Shown piece by piece: positions 13,407-24,130 of a stretch of DNA of 64,000 nucleotides; positions within the stretch are counted from its first letter, which is position 1, and the number at the start of each line of letters is the position of its first letter. Both the position numbers and the translations under genes were made by a program. Source of the stretch: Candidatus Eiseniibacteriota bacterium. GTDB taxonomy: Bacteria; Orphanbacterota; Orphanbacteria; Orphanbacterales; Orphanbacteraceae. The DNA is taken from contig JBDROZ010000070.1 of the NCBI GenBank assembly GCA_043809585.1, forward strand, positions 15,122 through 79,121, in the 5' to 3' direction. The notes beneath the pieces are model-generated. The model worked only from the letters and a program-made list of their open reading frames with translations, was not told where the DNA came from and searched no databases.

Positions 13407-13820
13407 ATGGCGACGGAGAAGATAGTCAAGTGCCGTGTCCGGCGACCCGACGTGTCGGACGCACCCTCCAGCCCGCGCTTCGTCCCCCTCGACATCTTCA
13501 ACCTCTGGAAGTTCCTGATGGAAGAGCGGCACCGGTTCGAGGTGTTCGGCCCGAAAGCGTCCCTCTGGTTCGAGCGGGGGGCGGCGACCGAGTCGAGCTA
13601 TGTGGGCATCGAGTACGAGCCGGTGACGCAGGTGGAGCTCTTCTACTTCGCCGAAGAGGACGACATGCTCCACCAGGAGGTCCGCTACTTCCCCTCCGGC
13701 GACGAGGAAGAGTACGACCACATCAAACACGCCTTCACCGCCCACTACCGCAACCACAAGACCCGCGGCGACGGCGATCCGAAGCTGAACGAAAACCCCG
13801 GCGTCTTCATAAAACGATAA
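13407..13820 (+). CDS. Hypothetical acidic protein (137 aa)
   Basis: Clean ORF with ATG, no recognisable motif; somewhat lower GC than its surroundings; convergent with the S8 protease gene. Confidence 0.35.
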   Translation: MATEKIVKCRVRRPDVSDAPSSPRFVPLDIFNLWKFLMEERHRFEVFGPKASLWFERGAATESSYVGIEYEPVTQVELFYFAEEDDMLHQEVRYFPSGDEEEYDHIKHAFTAHYRNHKTRGDGDPKLNENPGVFIKR

Positions 13821-13823
13821 AGG

Positions 13824-16442
13824 CTATCGCAGCAGAGTCAACCTCTGGGTGAGTACCTCCGTCCCCTTCGTGAGGCGGGCGAAGTAAACGCCGGAGGCGA
13901 CCTCTTCCCCCCCGGGCCCCGTGCCGTCCCAGATCTCTTCGTACGAACCGGCGGAGAGGGTCTCGTTCAGGAGAACCCGGACCCGGCGGCCTTGGAGCGA
14001 GTAGATCTCGAGGGTCACCGGCGACGGTTCGGGGAGGTCGAACCGGAGGTGGGTGATCGGATTGAACGGGTTCGGCCGCGCCGGGTGGAGCCGGAAGAGT
14101 GCCGGGACGTCCCCTCCGATCGGCACGGCGGTGGCCCCGCCGCCGGTCGCGGCGCTCGAGGCGGCGCCGGGCGAGTAGTTGTGGAAGCGGTCGTAGGCGA
14201 ACGCGGCGTAGTGATAGCGCGTGCCGGGGAAAAGCCCCCGGTCCGTGAGCGTCGATCCGCCCGACGTGTCGACGACGACGAGATCGCCCGGGAGCGGATC
14301 GCCCGCCGCATAGGTCTCGCCGTCGTCCGGCCCCCACATGACGGCGGCCGAGCTCCGGACGAGAAGGACGCCCGCCCCGTCCGCCTCGTCCGGCGGCGCC
14401 CAGAGGAGGCCGATGGTCGTGTCGTCCACCGTAGTCGCCTCGAGAGAGTCGGGCGGGTCCGGAGCCCGTGTGTCGATGCCGACGAGGGAGAAGGTCTGAC
14501 TCGTCCCGACAGGCACGTTTCCGCCCGTGACCCGGGCGGTCCATGTCCCTTCCTGGGGAGAGAGGGCCACGACCTGTTCCACGTTGTTCAGGTGATCGAC
14601 GCCGGTCACGGCCGACGCCGCCGGGTTGGACGGGTCGAGCACGGATGGGTACGCGGGGGGGGCCGTCGGCGGTAGGAGCAAGAGGTCGAGATCGTTCACG
14701 AGGGCCGGATTCGCGAGGGGGGTTCCGGCCGGGTCGTCCCAAACCAGGGTGACCTTCAGCTCCGGGAATCCGGCGGGTACCGGGAACGTCCACTCCCGGA
14801 CGCCGCCGTCGGAGACGCTGTCCTCGATCACCGTGGCGAACCGGACGCGATCGGCCGCACGCTTCACGTTCATCCGCCCGTAGCCGAACCGGTAGTCCGG
14901 TCCCGGGTTGCCGAGGTCGTCCGCCGTCCCGAGGAGCAGGGCCTTCAGCGTCGAGGGCCACGGCGGACTCCCGACGGCCCCCCACGTCTCGAGGAGGAGG
15001 GCCACGGCCCCCGAGACGGCCGGAGTCGCCATCGACGTCCCGCAGTAGTAGGCCGAACCGTAGGTGTCGCCGGACCAGGTCGACCAGATCGAGTAGTTGT
15101 AGTTCGACTGGCAGCCGCCGGCGACGATGTCCGGCTTCACCCGGCCGTCGTCCACGGGGCCGTATCCGGAGAACGTGGTCATGGACGAGTTGTTCGTGTT
15201 GACGGCGCCGACGGTGATCACGTTCTTCGCCGTCCCCGGCGGGGGAACGCAGGCGTATCCGCTCCGGGCGGCGATCCCGCAGTCGCCGTCGTTCCGCTCG
15301 TTCCCCGCGGCGACGACGATGGGGATCCGCTTTCCGAAGTAGCCCGCCACCACGGCGTCGAACTCGGGGGCGTAGCCGTCGTAGTCGCCGTAGAAGTAGC
15401 AGTTGTTCCACGCCGTCTGATCGACGTCGAGCACCCACGAGTTGGACGTGAGGTCCACGTCGTAAGCGGTGATGGCCGACCCGTACTCGCCGGGGATGTC
15501 GCCGTAGTAGTCGTACGAGAGCATCGAGCAGTCCGGCGCGACCCCGCGCCACTGGTTCGGCAGCGCGCCGAACAGGGCGGACCGCGCCCCCGACCCCCCG
15601 AGGGTCCCGGCCACATGGGTGGCGTGATCGGACGTCGGCGCGCCGGTGTCCACCACGAGCAGACGGCCGCCGAAGTCGGAGTGGGCGGCGATGGGGCCGC
15701 CGTCCCAGATGCCCGCCGTCACACCCGATCCGAGGATCGACAGGGGCGCGGCATGGACCGAATCGACGTTGCCGTTCTCCCGGATGCCGTCGTTCGCCGG
15801 CACCGGGGGGGGAAGGGGGGCCCCGATCCAGAGGACCTCGTCTTTCGCGGCGAGTGAGTCGAGGGCCGTCACCGGGAGGTTCGCGTCGAACCCGTGGAAG
15901 ACGGTCCTCCCGAGAACCGGAGTCCCCCCGGCCCGGGAGATGATGGTCGCCCCCTCGTAGAGGTCCACGTCCTCGTGAAACCGGACCCGGAGGGGAATGG
16001 CCCCCGCTTTCTTCCCGAGCGCCTCTTCCGCGACGGCCGGCGCGATCTTCGCCTTCACCGGGATCGTTCCGACCCAGCGGATCTCCTCGGGAGGGAGGGC
16101 GGCCCAGTCCGCCCCGCCATCCACGGAGACGATCCACGTGTCCCGGGGGAGATAGGCGAGCAGCGAGAACCCGGCCCGCCGGAGGCGGTCCCGGTCCGGT
16201 TTCGTGTGGAACTGGAAGAGCAGCCGCCGGTTCCCCTCCGAAGCGAGCCTCCGCCCCTCGGCGGCGGCTTCGGGCAGGCTCGCCGGGGTCATCGTCCCCG
16301 CCCCCTTCCATTGGATCCGGTAACTGGGCGGGGGGGAGGCGCTTCCGGGGGGCGTGGGGTCCTCCGGGTTCCTCCCCACGGCGGCGGCCGCGAGGAGGAC
16401 GAGAAAGACCACGGAAAACCCGGCGAGCCTCGCAGAATGCAC
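13824..16442 (-). CDS. Secreted subtilisin-like serine protease (S8) with C-terminal T9SS-type / FlgD-Ig-like sorting domain
   Basis: Subtilase catalytic motifs (VVDTG... Asp, HATHVAGT... His, GTSMATPAVSGA... Ser) and a C-terminal PNPFNPITHLRFDLP...LEIYSLQGRRV...GSYEEIWDG...SGVYFARL sorting domain. GTG start at 16442 precedes the signal peptide VHSARLAGFSVVFLVLLAAAAVG. Confidence 0.75.
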   Translation of the reverse strand: MHSARLAGFSVVFLVLLAAAAVGRNPEDPTPPGSASPPPSYRIQWKGAGTMTPASLPEAAAEGRRLASEGNRRLLFQFHTKPDRDRLRRAGFSLLAYLPRDTWIVSVDGGADWAALPPEEIRWVGTIPVKAKIAPAVAEEALGKKAGAIPLRVRFHEDVDLYEGATIISRAGGTPVLGRTVFHGFDANLPVTALDSLAAKDEVLWIGAPLPPPVPANDGIRENGNVDSVHAAPLSILGSGVTAGIWDGGPIAAHSDFGGRLLVVDTGAPTSDHATHVAGTLGGSGARSALFGALPNQWRGVAPDCSMLSYDYYGDIPGEYGSAITAYDVDLTSNSWVLDVDQTAWNNCYFYGDYDGYAPEFDAVVAGYFGKRIPIVVAAGNERNDGDCGIAARSGYACVPPPGTAKNVITVGAVNTNNSSMTTFSGYGPVDDGRVKPDIVAGGCQSNYNYSIWSTWSGDTYGSAYYCGTSMATPAVSGAVALLLETWGAVGSPPWPSTLKALLLGTADDLGNPGPDYRFGYGRMNVKRAADRVRFATVIEDSVSDGGVREWTFPVPAGFPELKVTLVWDDPAGTPLANPALVNDLDLLLLPPTAPPAYPSVLDPSNPAASAVTGVDHLNNVEQVVALSPQEGTWTARVTGGNVPVGTSQTFSLVGIDTRAPDPPDSLEATTVDDTTIGLLWAPPDEADGAGVLLVRSSAAVMWGPDDGETYAAGDPLPGDLVVVDTSGGSTLTDRGLFPGTRYHYAAFAYDRFHNYSPGAASSAATGGGATAVPIGGDVPALFRLHPARPNPFNPITHLRFDLPEPSPVTLEIYSLQGRRVRVLLNETLSAGSYEEIWDGTGPGGEEVASGVYFARLTKGTEVLTQRLTLLR

Positions 16443-16576
16443 GGCCGAGGAGTGCGATTCGCCCCCTCGCCGGAACCGCCGCGGGCGTACCCGGGCCCTC
16501 CCCGAGAGACCTCTGCTAAAGCCTCGGTATCTCAACAAGTTCCGATCGTCCTCCGGGCCCGGAGACGGGCCCTTCC

Positions 16577-16591
16577 TGGCATGAGACTTGC
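16577..16591 (+). promoter_or_regulatory. Candidate sigma-54 promoter TGGCAT-gagac-TTGCC upstream of mglA-like gene
   Basis: TGGCAT at 16577-16582, TTGC at 16588-16591, exact GG-N10-GC spacing; predicted TSS ~16603, ATG at 16651. Confidence 0.45.
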
Positions 16592-16650
16592 CCTGATTTT
16601 GAACTCCCAACTTGCAAGGTTTGCGCCGAACGCGATCGGAGGCTTTGAAC

Positions 16651-17892
16651 ATGGTGGTTTTCAACTACAGCGGCAAAGAGATCAACGCGAAGATCGTTTA
16701 CTACGGGCCGGGGCTTTCGGGAAAGACCACGAACCTCGAGCGGATCTACGGTCACGTGCCGGAGCAGCGCCGGGGGAAGATGGTCTCCATGAAGACCCGG
16801 AGCGACCGGACCCTATTCTTCGACTTCCTCCCCGTGAACGCCGGGGAGATCCGCGGGTTCCGAACCCGATTCCTCCTCTACACCGTTCCGGGTCAGGTCC
16901 ACTACAACGCGACCCGGAAGCTGGTCCTGAAGGGGACGGACGCGATCATCTTCGTCGCCGATTCCGATCCCGCCCTCCGGCAGGCGAACATCGAGAGTAT
17001 GCAGAACCTCGAACAGAATCTCGCCGAATACCAGCTCTCGGTCGAGAAGATCCCCGTGATCCTCCAGTTCAACAAGCGGGACCTGCCGAACGCCCTCACG
17101 CCGGAGGAACTGAACGGGGACCTGAACCGTCACGGGTGGCCCTGGTTCCAGGCGGTGGCCGTGAGCAACGAGGGCGTGTGGGAGACGTTCCGGGCCGCCA
17201 CGCGGGCGCTCTTCGAGAGCCTGGAGCGCACCCTCGGCGGCGAAGAGAAGGGGAAGAAGAGAGCGGGGGGGACCCCGGCCCCCGCCGAACCGGAAACCGC
17301 GAAGAAAGAGAAAGCCCCGGCGGATCCGCGGTTCCAGCCGAGCGCGCCGGTCTACGACGTGGGGGGCACGGTGGACGACGTGGTTCGCCTCTCCGACTCG
17401 CTGAAGTCGTGGAGCGCGGACGTCGCCGCCGGGCCCGAAAAGACGGACGATGCGGTCCCGGCCGCCGGGCCCGCCGAACGGGGGGAGGCGAGGGATGGCC
17501 GCTGGGAAGACCCGCTTGCGGGCGAGGGGCGCGCTCTGGGGGGAATCGACGATGGCGGGGGCAACGATCTTCCGGCGAAGCCGGCCCCACCCGCGGAGCT
17601 CGTCCCTTCCGACGATCCTGTTCCGCTGGCCGAGGGGACTTCCCCGGGGGATGGGGAGCGGAGCTCGACCCCGGGGGTCGAGGTAGCGGCCGCTCCCGAG
17701 CCGCGGCCCGCCGCGCCGGCCCGAGCGCCGGACGGCGTGGTTCGGGTCCCGGTCGAGATCGACGCGGGGAGCGGCCGGGTTCGGCTGGAAATCGCCCTCG
17801 AGATCCGTTTTGTCTCCTCCGACGCCCCGAAAGCGGCGGAACCGGAGGGGGAGCCGGCGGGCTCCCTTGACCACGAACCGGCCTGGTCGTAG
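16651..17892 (+). CDS. mglA: MglA-like Ras-family small GTPase with ~215-aa low-complexity C-terminal extension
   Basis: MVVFNYSGKEINAKIVYYGPGLSGKTTNLERIY...TRSDRTLFFDFLPVNAGEIRGFRTRFLLYTVPGQVHYNATRKLVLKGTDAIIFVADS...ILQFNKRDLPNA aligns almost position-by-position with Myxococcus MglA (P-loop, switch regions, NKxD). After ~residue 200 comes a Pro/Ala/Glu/Gly-rich tail that continues to the stop at 17892. Confidence 0.75.
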   Translation: MVVFNYSGKEINAKIVYYGPGLSGKTTNLERIYGHVPEQRRGKMVSMKTRSDRTLFFDFLPVNAGEIRGFRTRFLLYTVPGQVHYNATRKLVLKGTDAIIFVADSDPALRQANIESMQNLEQNLAEYQLSVEKIPVILQFNKRDLPNALTPEELNGDLNRHGWPWFQAVAVSNEGVWETFRAATRALFESLERTLGGEEKGKKRAGGTPAPAEPETAKKEKAPADPRFQPSAPVYDVGGTVDDVVRLSDSLKSWSADVAAGPEKTDDAVPAAGPAERGEARDGRWEDPLAGEGRALGGIDDGGGNDLPAKPAPPAELVPSDDPVPLAEGTSPGDGERSSTPGVEVAAAPEPRPAAPARAPDGVVRVPVEIDAGSGRVRLEIALEIRFVSSDAPKAAEPEGEPAGSLDHEPAWS

Positions 17893-17938
17893 AATCGAAC
17901 CGTCCGACATCGCCGGGGTGTCATGCCCCGGAAGGAGG

Positions 17939-18418
17939 ATGCTCGTGCGGTCGATTCCGGTCCTGATCGCTCTTTTCGCGACGTTCTCTCCCGGCTTCGC
18001 CGGCGAACTCCCCTACGGGGGGGTGGGCGGCTCGGGAGAGAGCGTTTTTCAATATCCGAGCCGGGGGATGCTCGGCATCCTCGACCCGGCGAAGCTCTCC
18101 GTGTCCCACGAGATGTCTTATTTCTACTCGACCGGCTCGGGAAGCGTGCCGGGGGGCGGCCTCGGTCTCTACCAGAACCGTCTCACCTATCAGGTGGCCG
18201 ACCCCCTCCGGATCACCCTGCACCTCGGGTACCAGTTCGCCTCGCCCGTCGGGTCCACGTACGGGGGCGATCAGTCGGCGAACGCATTCCTTCCCGGTCT
18301 CTCGATCTCTTACCGGCCGACGGAAAACACGCTGGTCCGGTTCGACTACCGGCAACTCCCCGGCGCCTACTCCGCCTACCGGCCCTGGTCTCTCCGGGAG
18401 CCGTACCCCGTCGACTGA
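17939..18418 (+). CDS. Small secreted beta-strand-rich protein (possible small outer-membrane barrel)
   Basis: Strong SD GGAAGGAGG before ATG 17939, signal peptide MLVRSIPVLIALFATFSPGFAG, Gly/Tyr-rich alternating hydrophobic pattern. Confidence 0.45.
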   Translation: MLVRSIPVLIALFATFSPGFAGELPYGGVGGSGESVFQYPSRGMLGILDPAKLSVSHEMSYFYSTGSGSVPGGGLGLYQNRLTYQVADPLRITLHLGYQFASPVGSTYGGDQSANAFLPGLSISYRPTENTLVRFDYRQLPGAYSAYRPWSLREPYPVD

Positions 18419-18539
18419 CCCATCCCCCCCCGATTACCGATCCCGGCTTGACTTGGCCCGGCTCCGTGGGCTAAACCAGGAACAGGGTGTCGCGGGGACG
18501 GCGCGGTCGGAAGGGCCGTCCCGAACGGAGGTGAATGCC

Positions 18540-19649
18540 TTGACCATTCGGTTTTGGGGTCGTGGTTCGGGTGAGAAGGAGAGGGGCGGGATCCTGAAGC
18601 GCCTGCAGCAGGACCCGAACAACCGGGATCTCCTCCACGAGGCGGTGGTCTATCTGGAGGGGGAGCGGCTCTATCCGGAGGCGATCGACCATCTGGAGAA
18701 GCTGCTCGCGATGGAGCCGGACAACCTCGAGCTCCTCAACACGGCCGGGCGTCTTCTCCGGAAGACGGGCCGTCACGAGGAATCCCTCGCCCGGCTGGAA
18801 CACGGTGTCCATGTCGCCTCGGACGATTTGGAAACTCAGGTCAACTTCGCGAAGACGCTGATGGCCCTCGACCGGTGGGGCGAGGCGGAAAAGAACGTCC
18901 TCCGTCTCCTCTCCCGGAACCCGGGCGTGCCGATCTGCCACTACGCCCTCGGCGTTCTACGGACCCGTCAGGATCGCTTCGACGAAGCGATTCAGGCGTA
19001 CGAGCGGGCCCTCGAGCTGGATCCGAAGTTCGCGCGGGCCCACTCGAATCTCGGCCTTCTCTACGATCAGACGGGTCGGATCGACGAGGCCCTCTCCCAC
19101 TTCCGGCGGGCCATTCGCCTCGAGCCGGAAAAGCCGGAGTGGCATCTGAACCTGGGCGCCGTCTACGGCGAGAAGGGGATGAGCCAGGAAGCGGTGGCCG
19201 AGTTCCAGGAGGCCCTCGGGCTCGACCCGAAGAATGTGGAGGCCCACTTCAATCTCGGCATGATCTTCCACGATCAAGGCGCGTTCGAGGACGCGATCCG
19301 GGAGTTCAAGATCGCCGTGGAGTCGGAGCCGGACAACATCAAGGCCCACTATCTCCTCGGCCGGGCCTACATTCGCCGGGGTATCTACGACCGGGCCCGG
19401 AAGCAGATGAACCGGGTTCTCTCTCTCGACCCGGACAACGCGAAGGCCTACTACTATCTCGGCGTGGCGGAGAACAAGAGGGAGAAGATCGACGAAGCCA
19501 TCGCCGCCCTCGAGAGGGCGATCTCCATCAATCCGGACGACGGGAAGCCGTACTACGTGCTCGGCATCGCTTACGACAAGAAGGGGGCCGGCGACAAGGC
19601 GCGGGAGGCGTACCGCACCGCGGACCGGCTGATCCAGGCGAGCCGTTGA
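18540..19649 (+). CDS. TPR-repeat protein
   Basis: At least 8 consecutive 34-aa TPR units (AHSNLGLLYDQTGRIDEALSHFRRAIRLEP etc.). The start is uncertain: TTG 18540 follows a GGAGGTG SD, GTG 18531 is an alternative, and the ORF is open from 18453. The stop overlaps the trpA ATG (ATGA). Confidence 0.6.
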   Translation: MTIRFWGRGSGEKERGGILKRLQQDPNNRDLLHEAVVYLEGERLYPEAIDHLEKLLAMEPDNLELLNTAGRLLRKTGRHEESLARLEHGVHVASDDLETQVNFAKTLMALDRWGEAEKNVLRLLSRNPGVPICHYALGVLRTRQDRFDEAIQAYERALELDPKFARAHSNLGLLYDQTGRIDEALSHFRRAIRLEPEKPEWHLNLGAVYGEKGMSQEAVAEFQEALGLDPKNVEAHFNLGMIFHDQGAFEDAIREFKIAVESEPDNIKAHYLLGRAYIRRGIYDRARKQMNRVLSLDPDNAKAYYYLGVAENKREKIDEAIAALERAISINPDDGKPYYVLGIAYDKKGAGDKAREAYRTADRLIQASR

Positions 19650-22072: not shown

Positions 22073-22245
22073 CAGAAAGCCCGAGGGGCGGTACTCTATA
22101 AGTTCTTATCCCTAGGCCTCTTGGCTTCGGGAGGACCGATCGGAACGAATCCCGAATCGACCTATTCCCGCCCGAGCAATCCGCGGAGACCGGGAGCGCC
22201 CCTGCTCCCGGATCCGTGAGTTTCCCGGGCGGCGGGAACGAAAGG

Positions 22246-22887
22246 ATGAATCGAGAGATGACGGCACCTTGGCGAATCATCGGACTCGCGGCTTTCGCGG
22301 CCCTCATTCCGGGAGCGGCCGCGGCGGTGGATTACGATAAGATCGAATCCCGTCCCCCCATGGGGCGGATCGAGGCGTACGAGAAGCTGCTCGGTGTGGA
22401 GAAGGACTCGGTGGAGCTCCTCTTCAAGCTGGGCAACGCCTACTATGACGCCGAGATGGGTGAGATGGCGGCCTCTTTCTATCGGCGTTCCGTCGTCGCA
22501 GGAGGTGATTCGAAGGTCGTCATCAACCTCGCGTTCGTGCTCGACGAGCTCGGGAAACGAGACGAAGCGGGCGAGGCGTACCGGGACGGTCTCCGTCGTA
22601 TGCCGAAGGACGCGGCGCTCCAGTCTTTTTACGGCGACTTCCTCGCCGCAGACCCCGATTCGGCCGCGGGATTGCCCGCCGCCGTGGAGGCGTACCGGCG
22701 CGCTCTCGATCTGGACGAGAATTGCGTCGAGGCGCACTTCGGCCTCGGAAATCTCTTCGCCGAGACGGGCATATACAAGGAGGCGATCCGGGAGTGGGAG
22801 CGGGTCCTTGCCATCGACGAAAAGCACCGTCTCGCCACCCGGGCGCGAAGCAACATCGAAAAGGCGCGGACCGAGAGGGGGCGTTGA
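22246..22887 (+). CDS. Secreted TPR-repeat protein
   Basis: Signal peptide, then TPR units (LLFKLGNAYYDAEMGEMAASFYRRSV, AHFGLGNLFAETGIYKEAIREWERVLAID). Confidence 0.55.
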   Translation: MNREMTAPWRIIGLAAFAALIPGAAAAVDYDKIESRPPMGRIEAYEKLLGVEKDSVELLFKLGNAYYDAEMGEMAASFYRRSVVAGGDSKVVINLAFVLDELGKRDEAGEAYRDGLRRMPKDAALQSFYGDFLAADPDSAAGLPAAVEAYRRALDLDENCVEAHFGLGNLFAETGIYKEAIREWERVLAIDEKHRLATRARSNIEKARTERGR

Positions 22888-22957: not shown

Positions 22958-24130
22958 GTGGAGGAGATGAGAGCGATGATCGTGCGAAACCGTAAGACCT
23001 GGGCGCTCGCGGCGCTCGCGACCGTACTGCTGATCGGAGGGATCGCCTGCGAGGTCCAGGATGATGTCATCACCCGGGAGCGGGTCGAATCGGACCCGGA
23101 GACGAAGGCGAATCGCCTCATGGCGAGCGCCCGCCAGTACCTCGACAGCGAGCTCTATCCCCAGGCGGAGCTTGCGTACCGGGAGGTCATCGATCTCCAG
23201 CCGGACAACCGGACCGCCCTCTCGAACCTCGCCTTCGCCGTTCGCGCCCAAGATCGCGGGGATGAGGCCTTCGAGTTGTACAAGCTCTATGCCGAGCGCT
23301 TCCCCGATGATGCCGACGGTTTCGCCCGCCTGGCCGCCGCCTACAACGACCGGGAGAATTACGCCGCCGCCGCCCAGCAGGTGGAGAAGGCGGTCGGGCT
23401 CAGCCCGGAGGACGCGACGCTCCGCAGCGATCTCGGGCACTATTACGTGCAGCTCGGGATGTGGGAGGAGGCGCAGGCCTCCTACGAGAAGGCGGTCGAG
23501 CTGGATCCCGAGAACGAGGAGTATCCGGGGATCCTCGCGACGGTCTACAAGGAGCTCGGAAAGACCGACGAACTTCTCGCCACCCAGGAGGCCCTCCTCG
23601 CGAAAGACCCGGAGAACAAGCGTCTCGTCAAGAACGTGGCCCAATTGAATGTCGACGTGGAGAACTACCCCCGGGCGACGGAGCTGTACGACCAGCTCGC
23701 CGAGATGGAACCGGAGAACACGGCGATCTTGAAGAACGTGGCGGTGCTCCAGCTCCGGATGGCGGACACCACGGCGGCGGTCGCGACCTATGAGCGGGTG
23801 GTAAGGCAGGATCCGAAAGATTCGGACGCCCGGGTTCGCCTCGCCGATCATATGCTGACCCTCGGCCGGTTTGACGAGTCGATCCGGACGGTTCAGATCG
23901 CCCTCGACCAGGCCCCGAACAACGCCCAGGGATGGTGCGTGTGGGGGAGGGCCCTCGAGAAGAAGAAGCTGTACGAGCAGGCCAAGGCGAAGTACGAGAA
24001 AGCCGCCACCCTCGGCGATCCCTTCTGGTCCGAGTACGCGAGCAAGGAAGTGATCCGGCAGCAACAGCTGATTCTCCGAGAAGAGGCGAAGAAGAAACAG
24101 GAAGAATACCAGAAGCTCGAAGAACTCTGA
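22958..24130 (+). CDS. TPR-repeat (lipo)protein
   Basis: Signal peptide with a Cys after LIGGIAC; multiple TPR units; coiled-coil Lys/Glu-rich C-terminus. Confidence 0.6.
   Translation: MEEMRAMIVRNRKTWALAALATVLLIGGIACEVQDDVITRERVESDPETKANRLMASARQYLDSELYPQAELAYREVIDLQPDNRTALSNLAFAVRAQDRGDEAFELYKLYAERFPDDADGFARLAAAYNDRENYAAAAQQVEKAVGLSPEDATLRSDLGHYYVQLGMWEEAQASYEKAVELDPENEEYPGILATVYKELGKTDELLATQEALLAKDPENKRLVKNVAQLNVDVENYPRATELYDQLAEMEPENTAILKNVAVLQLRMADTTAAVATYERVVRQDPKDSDARVRLADHMLTLGRFDESIRTVQIALDQAPNNAQGWCVWGRALEKKKLYEQAKAKYEKAATLGDPFWSEYASKEVIRQQQLILREEAKKKQEEYQKLEEL

What the first reader, a model, noticed from the sequence alone, without database searches (positions are those of the whole stretch)
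16651..17892. MglA-like GTPase with a ~215-residue Pro/Ala/Glu-rich C-terminal extension and no adjacent mglB
The first ~195 residues align almost residue-for-residue with Myxococcus MglA, which normally ends there and is encoded with its GAP MglB. Here the frame stays open for another ~215 codons of low-complexity sequence (AEPETAKKEKAPADP..., PAKPAPPAELVP...) ending in a more ordered segment (VVRVPVEIDAGSGRVRLEIALEIRFV). No roadblock/LC7 gene flanks it. Instead it sits between a T9SS-type protease and a small secreted beta-rich protein plus a TPR protein. Such a tail could tether the polarity GTPase to the envelope or secretion machinery. It could also be a GC-driven readthrough artefact.
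Basis: partly seen in the sequence, partly recalled or inferred. Interest (0 to 1): 0.6.

Follow-up and report, generated by a model that had tools for sequence, protein, structure and literature searches.

The report
MglA-type GTPase with conserved anchoring tail
This is a real gene from a large, apparently undescribed branch of the bacterial MglA polarity GTPases, in which the GTPase carries a long floppy tail ending in a small conserved beta-hairpin and has no MglB gene next to it. Sister branches end in membrane anchors instead, so the tail most likely positions the switch in the cell.

Summary
The ORF at 16651-17892 (+), 413 aa, is real. Residues 3-194 align without gaps to M. xanthus MglA (E=5e-68), and all catalytic motifs are present.

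The tail is not a GC read-through artefact:
- In-frame GC3 stays at 0.70-0.93 through it.
- Orthologues of 50-68% identity cover 94-100% of the length.
- The 150 nearest 50%-identity cluster representatives are all 251-790 aa.

The tail has four parts: an acidic Ala/Pro/Gly-rich disordered linker (aa 197-362), a short motif (DDVVRLSDSLKSW), an amphipathic beta-hairpin (VVRVPVEID-AGSG-RVRLEIALEIRFV, aa 363-388, AF2 pLDDT ~80), and a clade-specific end (SLDxxxxW).

The hairpin motif occurs in 160 of 188 extended relatives. Sister clades instead end in a MinD-like basic amphipathic peptide or a transmembrane helix, and all 15 of those have mglB directly downstream. Hairpin-class loci have it in 0 of 45, and the window has none in 64 kb.

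A cytoplasmic TPR protein follows the gene in 22 of 45 hairpin-class loci. The upstream S8 protease is not conserved.

Best reading: a distinct MglA paralogue whose tail is a flexible tether with a terminal docking module. What the hairpin binds is unknown. The main published survey of prokaryotic small GTPases excluded proteins over 240 aa.

The parts
16638..16642 (+). Shine-Dalgarno-like GGAGG, 8 nt upstream of the ATG
   Evidence: Read directly from the sequence. The orthologue N-termini (MVVFNYSGKEIN) support ATG 16651 as the start.
16651..17892 (+). Complete gene for the tailed MglA-type GTPase (413 aa plus stop)
   Evidence: ORF list. GC3 is 0.86 in frame. Full-length orthologues include P0001 at 68% identity and 100% coverage.
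16651..17238 (+). G domain (aa 1-196), MglA Group-1 type: P-loop GPGLSGKT, Arg finger R53 (DRTLFFD), G3 TVPGQ with Q82, G4 NKRD
   Evidence: phmmer against PDB: 5ymx E=5e-68, gapless over 3-194. Pfam Arf/Ras/Roc hits. Confident AF2 model. These residues are invariant or nearly invariant in alignments A1 and A2.
17239..17736 (+). Acidic Ala/Pro/Gly-rich disordered linker (aa 197-362), variable in length and sequence among relatives
   Evidence: AF2 pLDDT mostly below 50. Composition and net charge of -13. Poorly aligned and of variable length in A1 and A2. GC3 stays high.
17374..17421 (+). Conserved short motif within the linker, DDVVRLSDSLKSWSAD (aa 242-257); weakly predicted helix
   Evidence: Conserved as DDVVRLSGSLxSW in the close clade. 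A related x[VI][IR][RH]LSxxxx[IL]LG motif occurs in another subclade, P0022-P0027, P0034 and P0047. AF2 predicts a helix at 247-255 with low pLDDT.
17737..17820 (+). C-terminal amphipathic beta-hairpin module, VVRVPVEID-AGSG-RVRLEIALEIRFVSS (aa 363-390)
   Evidence: V366 and P367 are invariant in A1. A regex for the motif matches 160 of 188 extended relatives and 82 of 141 further cluster representatives. AF2 predicts strands 363-371 and 376-384 at pLDDT ~80. The beta hydrophobic moment is 2.5-2.8.
17821..17892 (+). Acidic C-terminal end with the clade-specific terminal motif SLDHEPAWS (aa 405-413), plus stop codon
   Evidence: [SV][LV]D[ST]GxxW[KSNT] lies at the extreme C-terminus of close orthologues only. 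It is absent from more distant hairpin-class proteins, which end 2-12 aa after the hairpin.
18453..19649 (+). Cytoplasmic TPR-repeat protein, a conserved downstream neighbour and candidate partner or effector. The true start is probably near 18540, giving ~369 aa.
   Evidence: Pfam TPR families. Full-length homologues at E<1e-25 lie 40-1460 bp downstream in 22 of 45 hairpin-class loci and in none of the short, amphipathic-helix or TM loci. The orthologue N-termini have no signal peptide.
17939..18418 (+). Small exported beta-rich protein (159 aa, Sec signal peptide). It lies between the GTPase and TPR genes and is conserved mainly in closer relatives.
   Evidence: tblastn hits downstream in 10 of 45 hairpin-class loci. 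Signal peptides are present in orthologues. No Pfam family reaches its threshold.
13407..13820 (+). Conserved 137-aa protein of unknown fold. In other genomes it lies 220-460 bp upstream of hairpin-class mglA. Here and in L001 the S8 protease gene separates it from the GTPase gene.

Best explanation
The gene encodes a functional member of a distinct, widespread and so far unclassified subfamily of Group-1 MglA-type small GTPases. In this subfamily a catalytically complete G domain is joined to a short conserved amphipathic beta-hairpin at the C-terminus by an intrinsically disordered, fast-evolving linker of 100-400 residues.

Proposed mechanism (inferred). The G domain cycles between GTP and GDP states like MglA. 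The linker acts as a flexible tether. The hairpin, whose one face is wholly hydrophobic, is the docking module that fixes the switch to a cellular site, either by binding a partner or by self-association. This is analogous to the membrane-targeting peptide or transmembrane helix at the same position in sister clades.

The conserved cytoplasmic TPR protein encoded just downstream is the leading candidate partner or effector. GTP hydrolysis would rely on a GAP encoded elsewhere (for example the MglB of a canonical mglBA pair, as seen in other Eisenbacteria genomes) or on slow intrinsic hydrolysis.

Shown: gene reality, family membership of the G domain, tail architecture and its conservation, absence of a linked mglB, and the TPR linkage. 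Inferred: the tethering function, the identity of the hairpin's ligand and the source of GAP activity.
For: - G domain: gapless match to MglA structures (E=5e-68). R53, Q82, TVPGQ and NKRD are conserved.
- Tail is translated and under selection: in-frame GC3 is 0.70-0.93. Orthologues at 50-68% identity cover 94-100% of the query. The hairpin stays in frame after linkers of very different length in 160 of 188 extended relatives and 82 of 141 further 50%-identity cluster representatives.
- Family size: all of the best 150 cluster representatives are 251-790 aa.
- AF2: confident G domain, disordered residues 197-360, hairpin at pLDDT ~80.
- Sister clades carry, at the same position, a basic amphipathic peptide (KKKRGFFKRLFGLK, net charge +4 to +7) or a C-terminal TM helix. 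Some hairpin-class proteins also carry an internal GFWGRLFRRGRK-like peptide.
- A rough NJ tree places the window protein in a hairpin clade separate from canonical short MglA.
- mglB linkage: 0 of 45 hairpin loci, against 10 of 10 amphipathic-helix, 5 of 5 TM and 9 of 14 short loci.
- TPR homologue downstream in 22 of 45 hairpin loci and in none of the other classes.
- TPR proteins are known MglA-GTP effectors (SgmX, PMC7519303).
Against: - No direct evidence shows what the hairpin binds.
- The window's linker is acidic (net -13) and lacks the basic helix, which argues against direct membrane binding.
- Synteny may partly reflect inherited gene order. trpA, an unrelated housekeeping gene, is conserved downstream almost as often as the TPR gene (17 of 45).
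- Thermoanaerobaculia hairpin-class genes stand alone among metabolic genes with no TPR neighbour.
- The NJ tree is rough and unbootstrapped, and it places the Thermoanaerobaculia hairpin group nearer the membrane-anchored clades. The hairpin may therefore be ancestral or convergent.
- Whether this genome has a canonical mglBA pair could not be tested.
Confidence: 0.55

Rival explanations
1. The hairpin, or the DDVVRLS motif, is an intramolecular regulatory element. It folds back on the G domain and acts as a built-in inhibitor or GDI/GAP surrogate, replacing the linked MglB. The tail would then control the nucleotide cycle rather than localisation.
For: The hairpin and a linked mglB are strictly mutually exclusive: 0 of 45 against 15 of 15 in the membrane-anchored sister clades. 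The hairpin reaches pLDDT ~80 despite lying after a 165-residue disordered linker, which is compatible with docking. MglA-GTP is known to bind short motifs in disordered linkers (GltJ linker, PMC11135422). Signature substitutions in the hairpin clade cluster in the switch I/beta2 region (V45, M47, K48).
Against: The exclusivity rests on only two or three independent lineages, so it may be phylogenetic inertia. The intrinsic Arg finger and Gln are intact, as in MglB-dependent MglA. A very long, variable linker is unnecessary for a cis-acting element. No contact information could be obtained.
Confidence: 0.2
2. The hairpin is a self-association (dimer or oligomer) or condensate-forming module. 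Together with the disordered acidic linker it builds a polar or mid-cell assembly of the GTPase, with no specific heterologous partner.
For: The hairpin has one fully hydrophobic face that must be buried (beta moment 2.5-2.8). Thermoanaerobaculia members are monocistronic, with no conserved neighbour. The linker is long and of low complexity.
Against: There is no evidence of oligomerisation. The TPR gene is linked in about half of the main clade. Only a monomer could be modelled.
Confidence: 0.15
3. The tail is an annotation or assembly artefact. A missed stop or frameshift near codon 196, or GC-driven read-through, would make the real product a ~195-aa canonical MglA.
For: GC content is about 70%, so long spurious ORFs are common. 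Two overlapping ORFs of 365 and 658 aa cover the same DNA in other frames.
Against: In-frame GC3 periodicity persists to the stop codon. Independent assemblies from many phyla keep the frame and the C-terminal hairpin. No orthologue ends near residue 195. The short proteins found form a separate clade linked to mglB.
Confidence: 0.02

Closest known systems
MglA of Myxococcus xanthus / Thermus thermophilus (Group 1 MglA; PDB 5ymx, 6izw, 3t12)
   Same: The G domain is ~60% identical and aligns without gaps. It has the P-loop, the intrinsic Arg finger (R53), catalytic Q82, the TVPGQ G3 motif (Thr in place of Asp) and the NKRD G4 motif.
   Different: Canonical MglA is a 190-200-aa single-domain soluble protein encoded next to mglB. 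The protein here is 413 aa with a disordered linker and a C-terminal hairpin, has no mglB within 64 kb, and falls in a separate clade.
SofG of M. xanthus (orphan MglA paralogue)
   Same: Both are Group-1 MglA paralogues longer than the G domain and not coupled to mglB. MglB does not stimulate SofG, and its GAP is unknown (PMC4316618).
   Different: From my own knowledge, SofG's main extension is N-terminal and it works with the bactofilin BacP. Here there is no N-terminal extension (the alignment starts at residue 1-3), and no bactofilin gene was seen among the neighbours scanned. The C-terminal hairpin is not a described SofG feature.
Bdellovibrio MglA with TPR protein Bd2492, and M. xanthus MglA with TPR effector SgmX
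   Same: In both cases an MglA-type GTPase acts through a TPR-repeat partner. Bdellovibrio MglA is also an orphan without MglB (PMC4316618). SgmX is an MglA-GTP effector (PMC7519303). Here a cytoplasmic TPR gene is conserved just downstream.
   Different: Those GTPases have no tail. The TPR protein here matches only generic TPR models, all below the family cut-offs, and no interaction has been shown. The Bd2492 detail is from my own knowledge.
FtsZ architecture (GTPase core, disordered C-terminal linker, short conserved C-terminal peptide that binds membrane anchors)
   Same: The same three-part logic: a globular GTPase, a linker variable in length and sequence, and a short conserved terminal docking element. 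This is an analogy only, from my own knowledge.
   Different: The fold is unrelated (tubulin-like versus Ras-like). The FtsZ peptide is a short helix or strand that binds FtsA, ZipA or SepF, whereas here the element is a ~25-residue beta-hairpin with an unknown ligand.
C-terminal membrane anchors of MinD/FtsA (amphipathic helix) and of eukaryotic Ras/Rho/Rab (hypervariable region plus lipid or polybasic anchor)
   Same: Sister clades of this family end in KKKRGFFKRLFGLK-type peptides or a TM helix after a variable linker. This is the same design as MinD's membrane-targeting sequence and the Ras hypervariable-region anchor (own knowledge).
   Different: The window protein itself has neither a basic amphipathic peptide nor a TM helix nor a CAAX box. 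Its terminal module is a beta-hairpin and its linker is acidic.

Membership tests
MglA family, Group 1 (Wuichet & Sogaard-Andersen 2014) | Ras-like G domain with P-loop GxxxxGK[ST] and G4 [NT]KxD | tested here: met
   GPGLSGKT and NKRD are present and invariant in A1. Pfam Arf/Ras/Roc and TIGR00231 hits.
MglA family, Group 1 (Wuichet & Sogaard-Andersen 2014) | G3 motif with Thr in place of the usual Asp (TxxGQ), plus the catalytic Gln | tested here: met
   LYTVPGQV, with T78 and Q82 invariant in A1 and nearly invariant in A2.
MglA family, Group 1 (Wuichet & Sogaard-Andersen 2014) | Intrinsic arginine finger (R53 in M. xanthus numbering) and the bacterial insertion between G1 and G2 | tested here: met
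   The DRTLFFD segment aligns gaplessly with MglA. R53 is invariant in A1.
MglA family, Group 1 (Wuichet & Sogaard-Andersen 2014) | Single-domain protein of 150-240 aa (the length criterion used in that classification) | tested here: not met
   The protein is 413 aa. That survey excluded sequences longer than 240 aa (PMC4316618).
Canonical MglA/MglB module | mglB (Roadblock/LC7 GAP) encoded within four genes of mglA | tested here: not met
   tblastn with an Eisenbacteria MglB gave no hit at E<=10 in the 64-kb window and 0 of 45 in hairpin-class loci. No Robl_LC7 appears in the precomputed Pfam annotation of L001, L002 or L004-L007. The upstream 137-aa protein is not Roadblock-like.
Canonical MglA/MglB module | GTP hydrolysis stimulated by MglB; GTP-dependent polar localisation | not testable with these tools
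   Requires biochemistry and cell biology. Whether the genome encodes MglB elsewhere is also unknown, because only 64 kb is available.
SofG-type orphan MglA paralogue | N-terminal extension preceding the G domain; functional link to a bactofilin | tested here: not met
   The G domain starts at residue 1-3. No bactofilin was found among the neighbours scanned. The SofG features themselves are recalled from my own knowledge.
Hairpin-tailed MglA subfamily (defined in this work) | G-domain signature GKMVSMKT / VPGQV[HY]YN, a disordered linker, and a C-terminal h-x-h-P-h ... [RK]-h-x-h-x-h-x-h hairpin | tested here: met
   The signatures were used to retrieve 588 loci. Clade-specific residues are G8, V45, M47, K48, L75 and A98. 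Hairpin regex and AF2 model.
Membrane-anchored small GTPases (MinD-like MTS, tail-anchor TM helix or Ras-type CAAX/polybasic) | C-terminal basic amphipathic helix, TM helix or CAAX box | tested here: not met
   The window protein ends ...SLDHEPAWS. Its linker has net charge -13 and it has no hydrophobic stretch. The feature is met only by sister clades.

The most novel reading that the evidence does not exclude
Bacterial MglA-type GTPases have independently evolved the eukaryote-like design of a small GTPase followed by a hypervariable C-terminal tether and an interchangeable anchor. The anchor can be a basic amphipathic peptide, a tail-anchor TM helix or a novel amphipathic beta-hairpin. The hairpin version found here would be an MglB-independent, self-contained polarity or positioning switch. 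Its hairpin would be a new docking or regulatory module, possibly binding the conserved TPR neighbour or its own switch regions. It would organise a housekeeping process in Eisenbacteria, Latescibacterota, Krumholzibacteriota, Gemmatimonadota and Acidobacteriota, rather than Myxococcus-style motility reversals.
Probability: 0.3. Interest if true: 0.8.

Novelty: new variant of a known kind. Interest (0 to 1): 0.6.

Why it matters
MglA is the model prokaryotic Ras-like switch. It is described as a soluble single-domain protein whose position is set entirely by partners such as MglB and RomR/RomX. The family shown here is large. All of the nearest 150 cluster representatives at 50% identity are tailed, across at least eight phylum-level lineages. 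In this family the switch carries its own tether and terminal module, and sister clades carry plain membrane anchors.

This bears on three questions:
- how small GTPases acquired C-terminal membrane targeting, which is a hallmark of eukaryotic Ras, Rho and Rab;
- how an MglA-type GTPase can work without a linked MglB GAP;
- what organises cell polarity in uncultivated FCB-group and related phyla.

The family was invisible to the reference classification, which discarded proteins longer than 240 aa. The hairpin is a short, clearly defined module with a testable binding function.

Tried and rejected
1. Artefact or read-through. Rejected on GC3 periodicity and on orthologue conservation of the frame and the C-terminal motif.

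3. Functional link to the T9SS-type S8 protease. Rejected, because the protease is absent in L002 and in distant syntenic loci.

4. Motility or secretion genes in the neighbourhood. Pfam scans of ten downstream genes gave only housekeeping and TPR proteins. The Thermoanaerobaculia copies sit among amidohydrolases.

5. Whether the hairpin docks on the G domain in the AF2 model. This could not be assessed, because model coordinates are not exposed to the scripting environment.

6. Literature. Four full-text searches found no description of tailed, membrane-anchored or hairpin-bearing MglA. Source databases give these proteins no name, or only generic ones.

7. Looking up the contig of the 100%-identical neighbour protein P0122 failed because it is not on record. 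The rest of the genome could therefore not be searched for mglBA.
Full report
**Observation.** The window contains an ORF at 16651-17892 on the plus strand (413 aa). A longer reading from a TTG at 16612 is possible. The ATG at 16651 is preceded by GGAGG at 16638-16642, and every orthologue starts MVVFNYSGKEIN, so 16651 is the start. Residues 3-194 align without a gap to M. xanthus MglA (PDB 5ymx, E=5e-68) and T. thermophilus MglA (3t12, E=6e-67). The P-loop (GPGLSGKT), the intrinsic arginine finger (DRTLFFD), the MglA-specific G3 motif (TVPGQ) and G4 (NKRD) are all present. The frame then stays open for about 217 more codons. The tail is rich in Ala, Pro, Gly, Glu and Asp, and the linker has a net charge of -13.

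**Is the tail real?** At ~70% GC, long spurious ORFs are common; two of them overlap this gene in other frames. Three observations show the tail is translated:
- Third-position GC stays at 0.70-0.93 in this frame up to the stop codon, as in well-supported neighbouring genes.
- The closest homologues in a 5.8-billion-protein collection are 341-463 aa. Those at 50-68% identity cover 94-100% of the query, tail included.
- An exhaustive HMMER search of 1.84 billion cluster representatives found 2077 relatives at E<=1e-30. All of the best 150 are 251-790 aa long.

No orthologue ends near residue 195. The artefact hypothesis is rejected.

**Anatomy of the tail.** Alignment of 19 relatives and inspection of over 300 tails show four elements:
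- a linker that varies freely in length and sequence (aa 197-362 here);
- a short motif, DDVVRLSDSLKSW (aa 242-254), conserved in the close clade, with a related x[VI][IR][RH]LSxxxx[IL]LG motif in another subclade;
- a C-terminal module of consensus h-x-h-P-h-x-h, a 5-12 residue loop, then [RK]-h-x-h-x-h-x-h. Here it reads VVRVPVEID-AGSG-RVRLEIALEIRFV (aa 363-388), with V366 and P367 invariant in the 19-sequence alignment;
- in the close clade only, a terminal [SV][LV]D[ST]GxxW motif (SLDHEPAWS here).

A regular expression for the hairpin matches 160 of 188 extended relatives and 82 of 141 further cluster representatives. Many of the remainder match by eye. AlphaFold2 with a 114-sequence alignment gives a confident G domain, pLDDT below 50 for residues ~197-360, a weak helix at 247-255, and two strands (363-371 and 376-384) at pLDDT ~80. 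Both strands alternate hydrophobic and charged residues (beta hydrophobic moment 2.5-2.8). One face of the hairpin is entirely hydrophobic and must be buried against something.

**Relatives and classes.** A scan of one genome per species found 588 related loci, of which 80 were kept. They come from Candidatus Eisenbacteria, Latescibacterota, Krumholzibacteriota, Gemmatimonadota, Zixibacteria, Ignavibacteriales, Fibrobacteria, Thermoanaerobaculia and other Acidobacteriota, Planctomycetota, Nitrospirota and others. A neighbouring protein in the window is 100% identical to an NCBI entry from a Candidatus Eisenbacteria MAG, so the window is from that candidate phylum. Reading each gene through to its stop sorts the proteins by their C-termini:
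- hairpin;
- basic amphipathic peptide such as KKKRGFFKRLFGLK (net charge +4 to +7), which from my own knowledge closely resembles the MinD membrane-targeting sequence;
- a C-terminal transmembrane helix (Planctomycetota);
- canonical short proteins of 190-192 aa.

Some hairpin-class proteins also carry an internal GFWGRLFRRGRK-like peptide. An NJ tree of the G domains is rough and unbootstrapped. It places the window protein in a large hairpin clade that is separate from the canonical short clade containing M. xanthus MglA. A second hairpin group (Thermoanaerobaculia) falls nearer the membrane-anchored clades.

**MglB.** In an Eisenbacteria locus with a short mglA (L070), the upstream gene is a typical MglB. 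I used it as a tblastn query against the window and all 87 loci and tabulated hits within 3.5 kb:

| Tail class | Loci with mglB nearby | Position of mglB |
|---|---|---|
| Short (canonical) | 9 of 14 | directly upstream |
| Amphipathic helix | 10 of 10 | 7-48 bp downstream |
| TM helix | 5 of 5 | 49-73 bp downstream |
| Hairpin | 0 of 45 | none |

The 64-kb window has no hit even at E<=10. The query detected MglB at 31-37% identity in other phyla, so sensitivity is adequate for Group-1 MglB. No Robl_LC7 domain appears in the precomputed annotation of six hairpin-class loci. The absence of a flanking mglB is therefore a property of the whole hairpin class. Short mglB-mglA pairs occur in other Eisenbacteria genomes (L025, L065, L070). 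The tailed gene is thus a paralogue, not MglA that lost its partner. Whether this particular genome has both could not be tested.

**Neighbourhood.** The order recG ... tailed mglA, small protein, ~370-aa protein, trpA, ubiA-family, uppP is conserved in L001 (68% identity) and L002 (50% identity), and partly in distant loci.
- The ~370-aa protein is the TPR protein at 18453-19649. Full-length homologues (E<1e-25) lie 40-1460 bp downstream in 22 of 45 hairpin-class loci and in none of the other classes. The orthologues have no signal peptide, so the protein is cytoplasmic.
- A 137-aa protein (window 13407-13820) lies 220-460 bp upstream of the GTPase gene in 14 of 45 loci. In the window and L001 the S8 protease gene is inserted between them.
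- The protease is absent from L002 and the distant loci, so the T9SS/protease association is incidental.
- The small exported protein (17939-18418) is conserved mainly in closer relatives (10 of 45).

One caveat applies. trpA is conserved downstream in 17 of 45 loci, so part of this synteny is probably inherited gene order rather than functional coupling. Thermoanaerobaculia hairpin-class genes are monocistronic among amidohydrolase genes.

**Dead ends.**
- Ten downstream genes are housekeeping or TPR genes, with no motility or secretion machinery.
- Model coordinates are not exposed, so I could not check whether the hairpin docks on the G domain.

**Mechanism.** What is shown is a catalytically complete MglA-type switch, a disordered tether under no sequence constraint, and a strongly conserved terminal hairpin with a hydrophobic face. 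In sister clades the equivalent position holds unmistakable membrane anchors. The most economical inference is that the tail positions the GTPase: the hairpin docks to a partner or self-associates, and the linker gives reach. This resembles FtsZ's linker plus C-terminal peptide, or the Ras hypervariable region plus anchor (analogies from my own knowledge).

The downstream cytoplasmic TPR protein is the leading candidate partner or effector. TPR proteins are established MglA-GTP effectors (SgmX, PMC7519303). The window's acidic linker and the lack of a basic helix argue against direct lipid binding.

The main rival is cis-regulation, in which the hairpin or the DDVVRLS motif binds the switch regions and substitutes for the linked MglB. 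Three things favour it: the strict mutual exclusivity with mglB, the known ability of MglA-GTP to bind short motifs in disordered linkers (GltJ, PMC11135422), and clade-specific substitutions next to switch I (V45, M47, K48). However, that exclusivity rests on few independent lineages.

I put the tether/docking model at about 0.55, cis-regulation at 0.2, pure self-association at 0.15 and artefact at 0.02.

**Comparison with known families.** By its G domain this is a Group-1 MglA family member: all catalytic and sequence criteria were tested and met. It fails the single-domain length criterion and the mglB-coupling criterion. It is not SofG-like, because it has no N-terminal extension. [quoted passage not shown] Four full-text searches found no description of tailed or anchored MglA proteins. 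The source databases call these proteins hypothetical, MglA, or SRP receptor beta subunit. I cannot exclude a description in literature outside the searchable library.

**Verdict.** The finding is a new variant of a known kind: a large, conserved, MglB-unlinked subfamily of MglA GTPases with a disordered tether and a novel C-terminal beta-hairpin, alongside sister subfamilies with built-in membrane anchors. Interest is moderate to high (0.6). It is not a new class of system, but it changes the picture of MglA as a tail-less soluble switch and provides a small, well-defined module whose function can be tested directly.

Noticed in passing
[not shown]
   Followed up: yes
window 13824-16664 (-): An S8 subtilase with a FlgD_ig-like C-terminal domain (T9SS-type sorting domain?). 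It sits between the 137-aa gene and the GTPase gene only in the window and L001, and is absent from L002 and distant loci. This looks like a lineage-specific insertion into an otherwise conserved gene order.
   Followed up: partly
L028, L030, L035, L045, L047, L049, L058, L060, L063, L084 (gene at ~8001 or as listed): Extended MglA proteins of Ignavibacteriales, Zixibacteria and Fibrobacteria end in MinD-like basic amphipathic peptides (KKKRGFFKRLFGLK). All have mglB 7-48 bp downstream. Membrane-anchored MglA/MglB modules of this kind appear not to have been described.
   Followed up: partly
L069, L072, L077, L080, L081: Planctomycetota MglA-like proteins of 316-489 aa end in a predicted C-terminal transmembrane helix (tail-anchor topology). 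Each has mglB 49-73 bp downstream.
   Followed up: partly
window 17867-17895 (+): A sigma-70-like promoter match (TTGACC, 17-nt spacer, TAGAAT; 10 of 12 positions; 0.1 expected by chance) overlaps the stop codon of the GTPase gene. It could drive the downstream small-protein and TPR genes separately. No terminator-like site lies between the genes.
   Followed up: no
window 17939-18418 (+): A small exported beta-rich protein (Sec signal peptide, 159 aa) with no Pfam family. It is conserved between the GTPase and TPR genes in closer relatives, and weakly in some Eisenbacteria and Krumholzibacteriota loci. An exported protein is an odd companion for a cytoplasmic switch.
   Followed up: partly
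window 22216-22887 and 22958-24130 (+): Two further TPR-repeat genes lie downstream of uppP. Both are also present at the same relative position in L001 and L002.
   Followed up: no
L004-L007, immediately downstream of recG: A Zn_ribbon_4/5 (MJ0042-type) protein follows recG near the tailed mglA in distant loci. In M. xanthus, the zinc-ribbon domain of GltJ binds MglB, and the GltJ linker binds MglA-GTP (PMC11135422). No such gene is present in the window.
   Followed up: no
P0039, P0079, P0091, P0097, P0111, P0136, P0145, P0149 (tails): Some hairpin-class proteins carry both an internal basic amphipathic peptide (e.g. GFWGRLFRRGRK) in the linker and the terminal hairpin. The two modules are therefore not strict alternatives.
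   Followed up: partly
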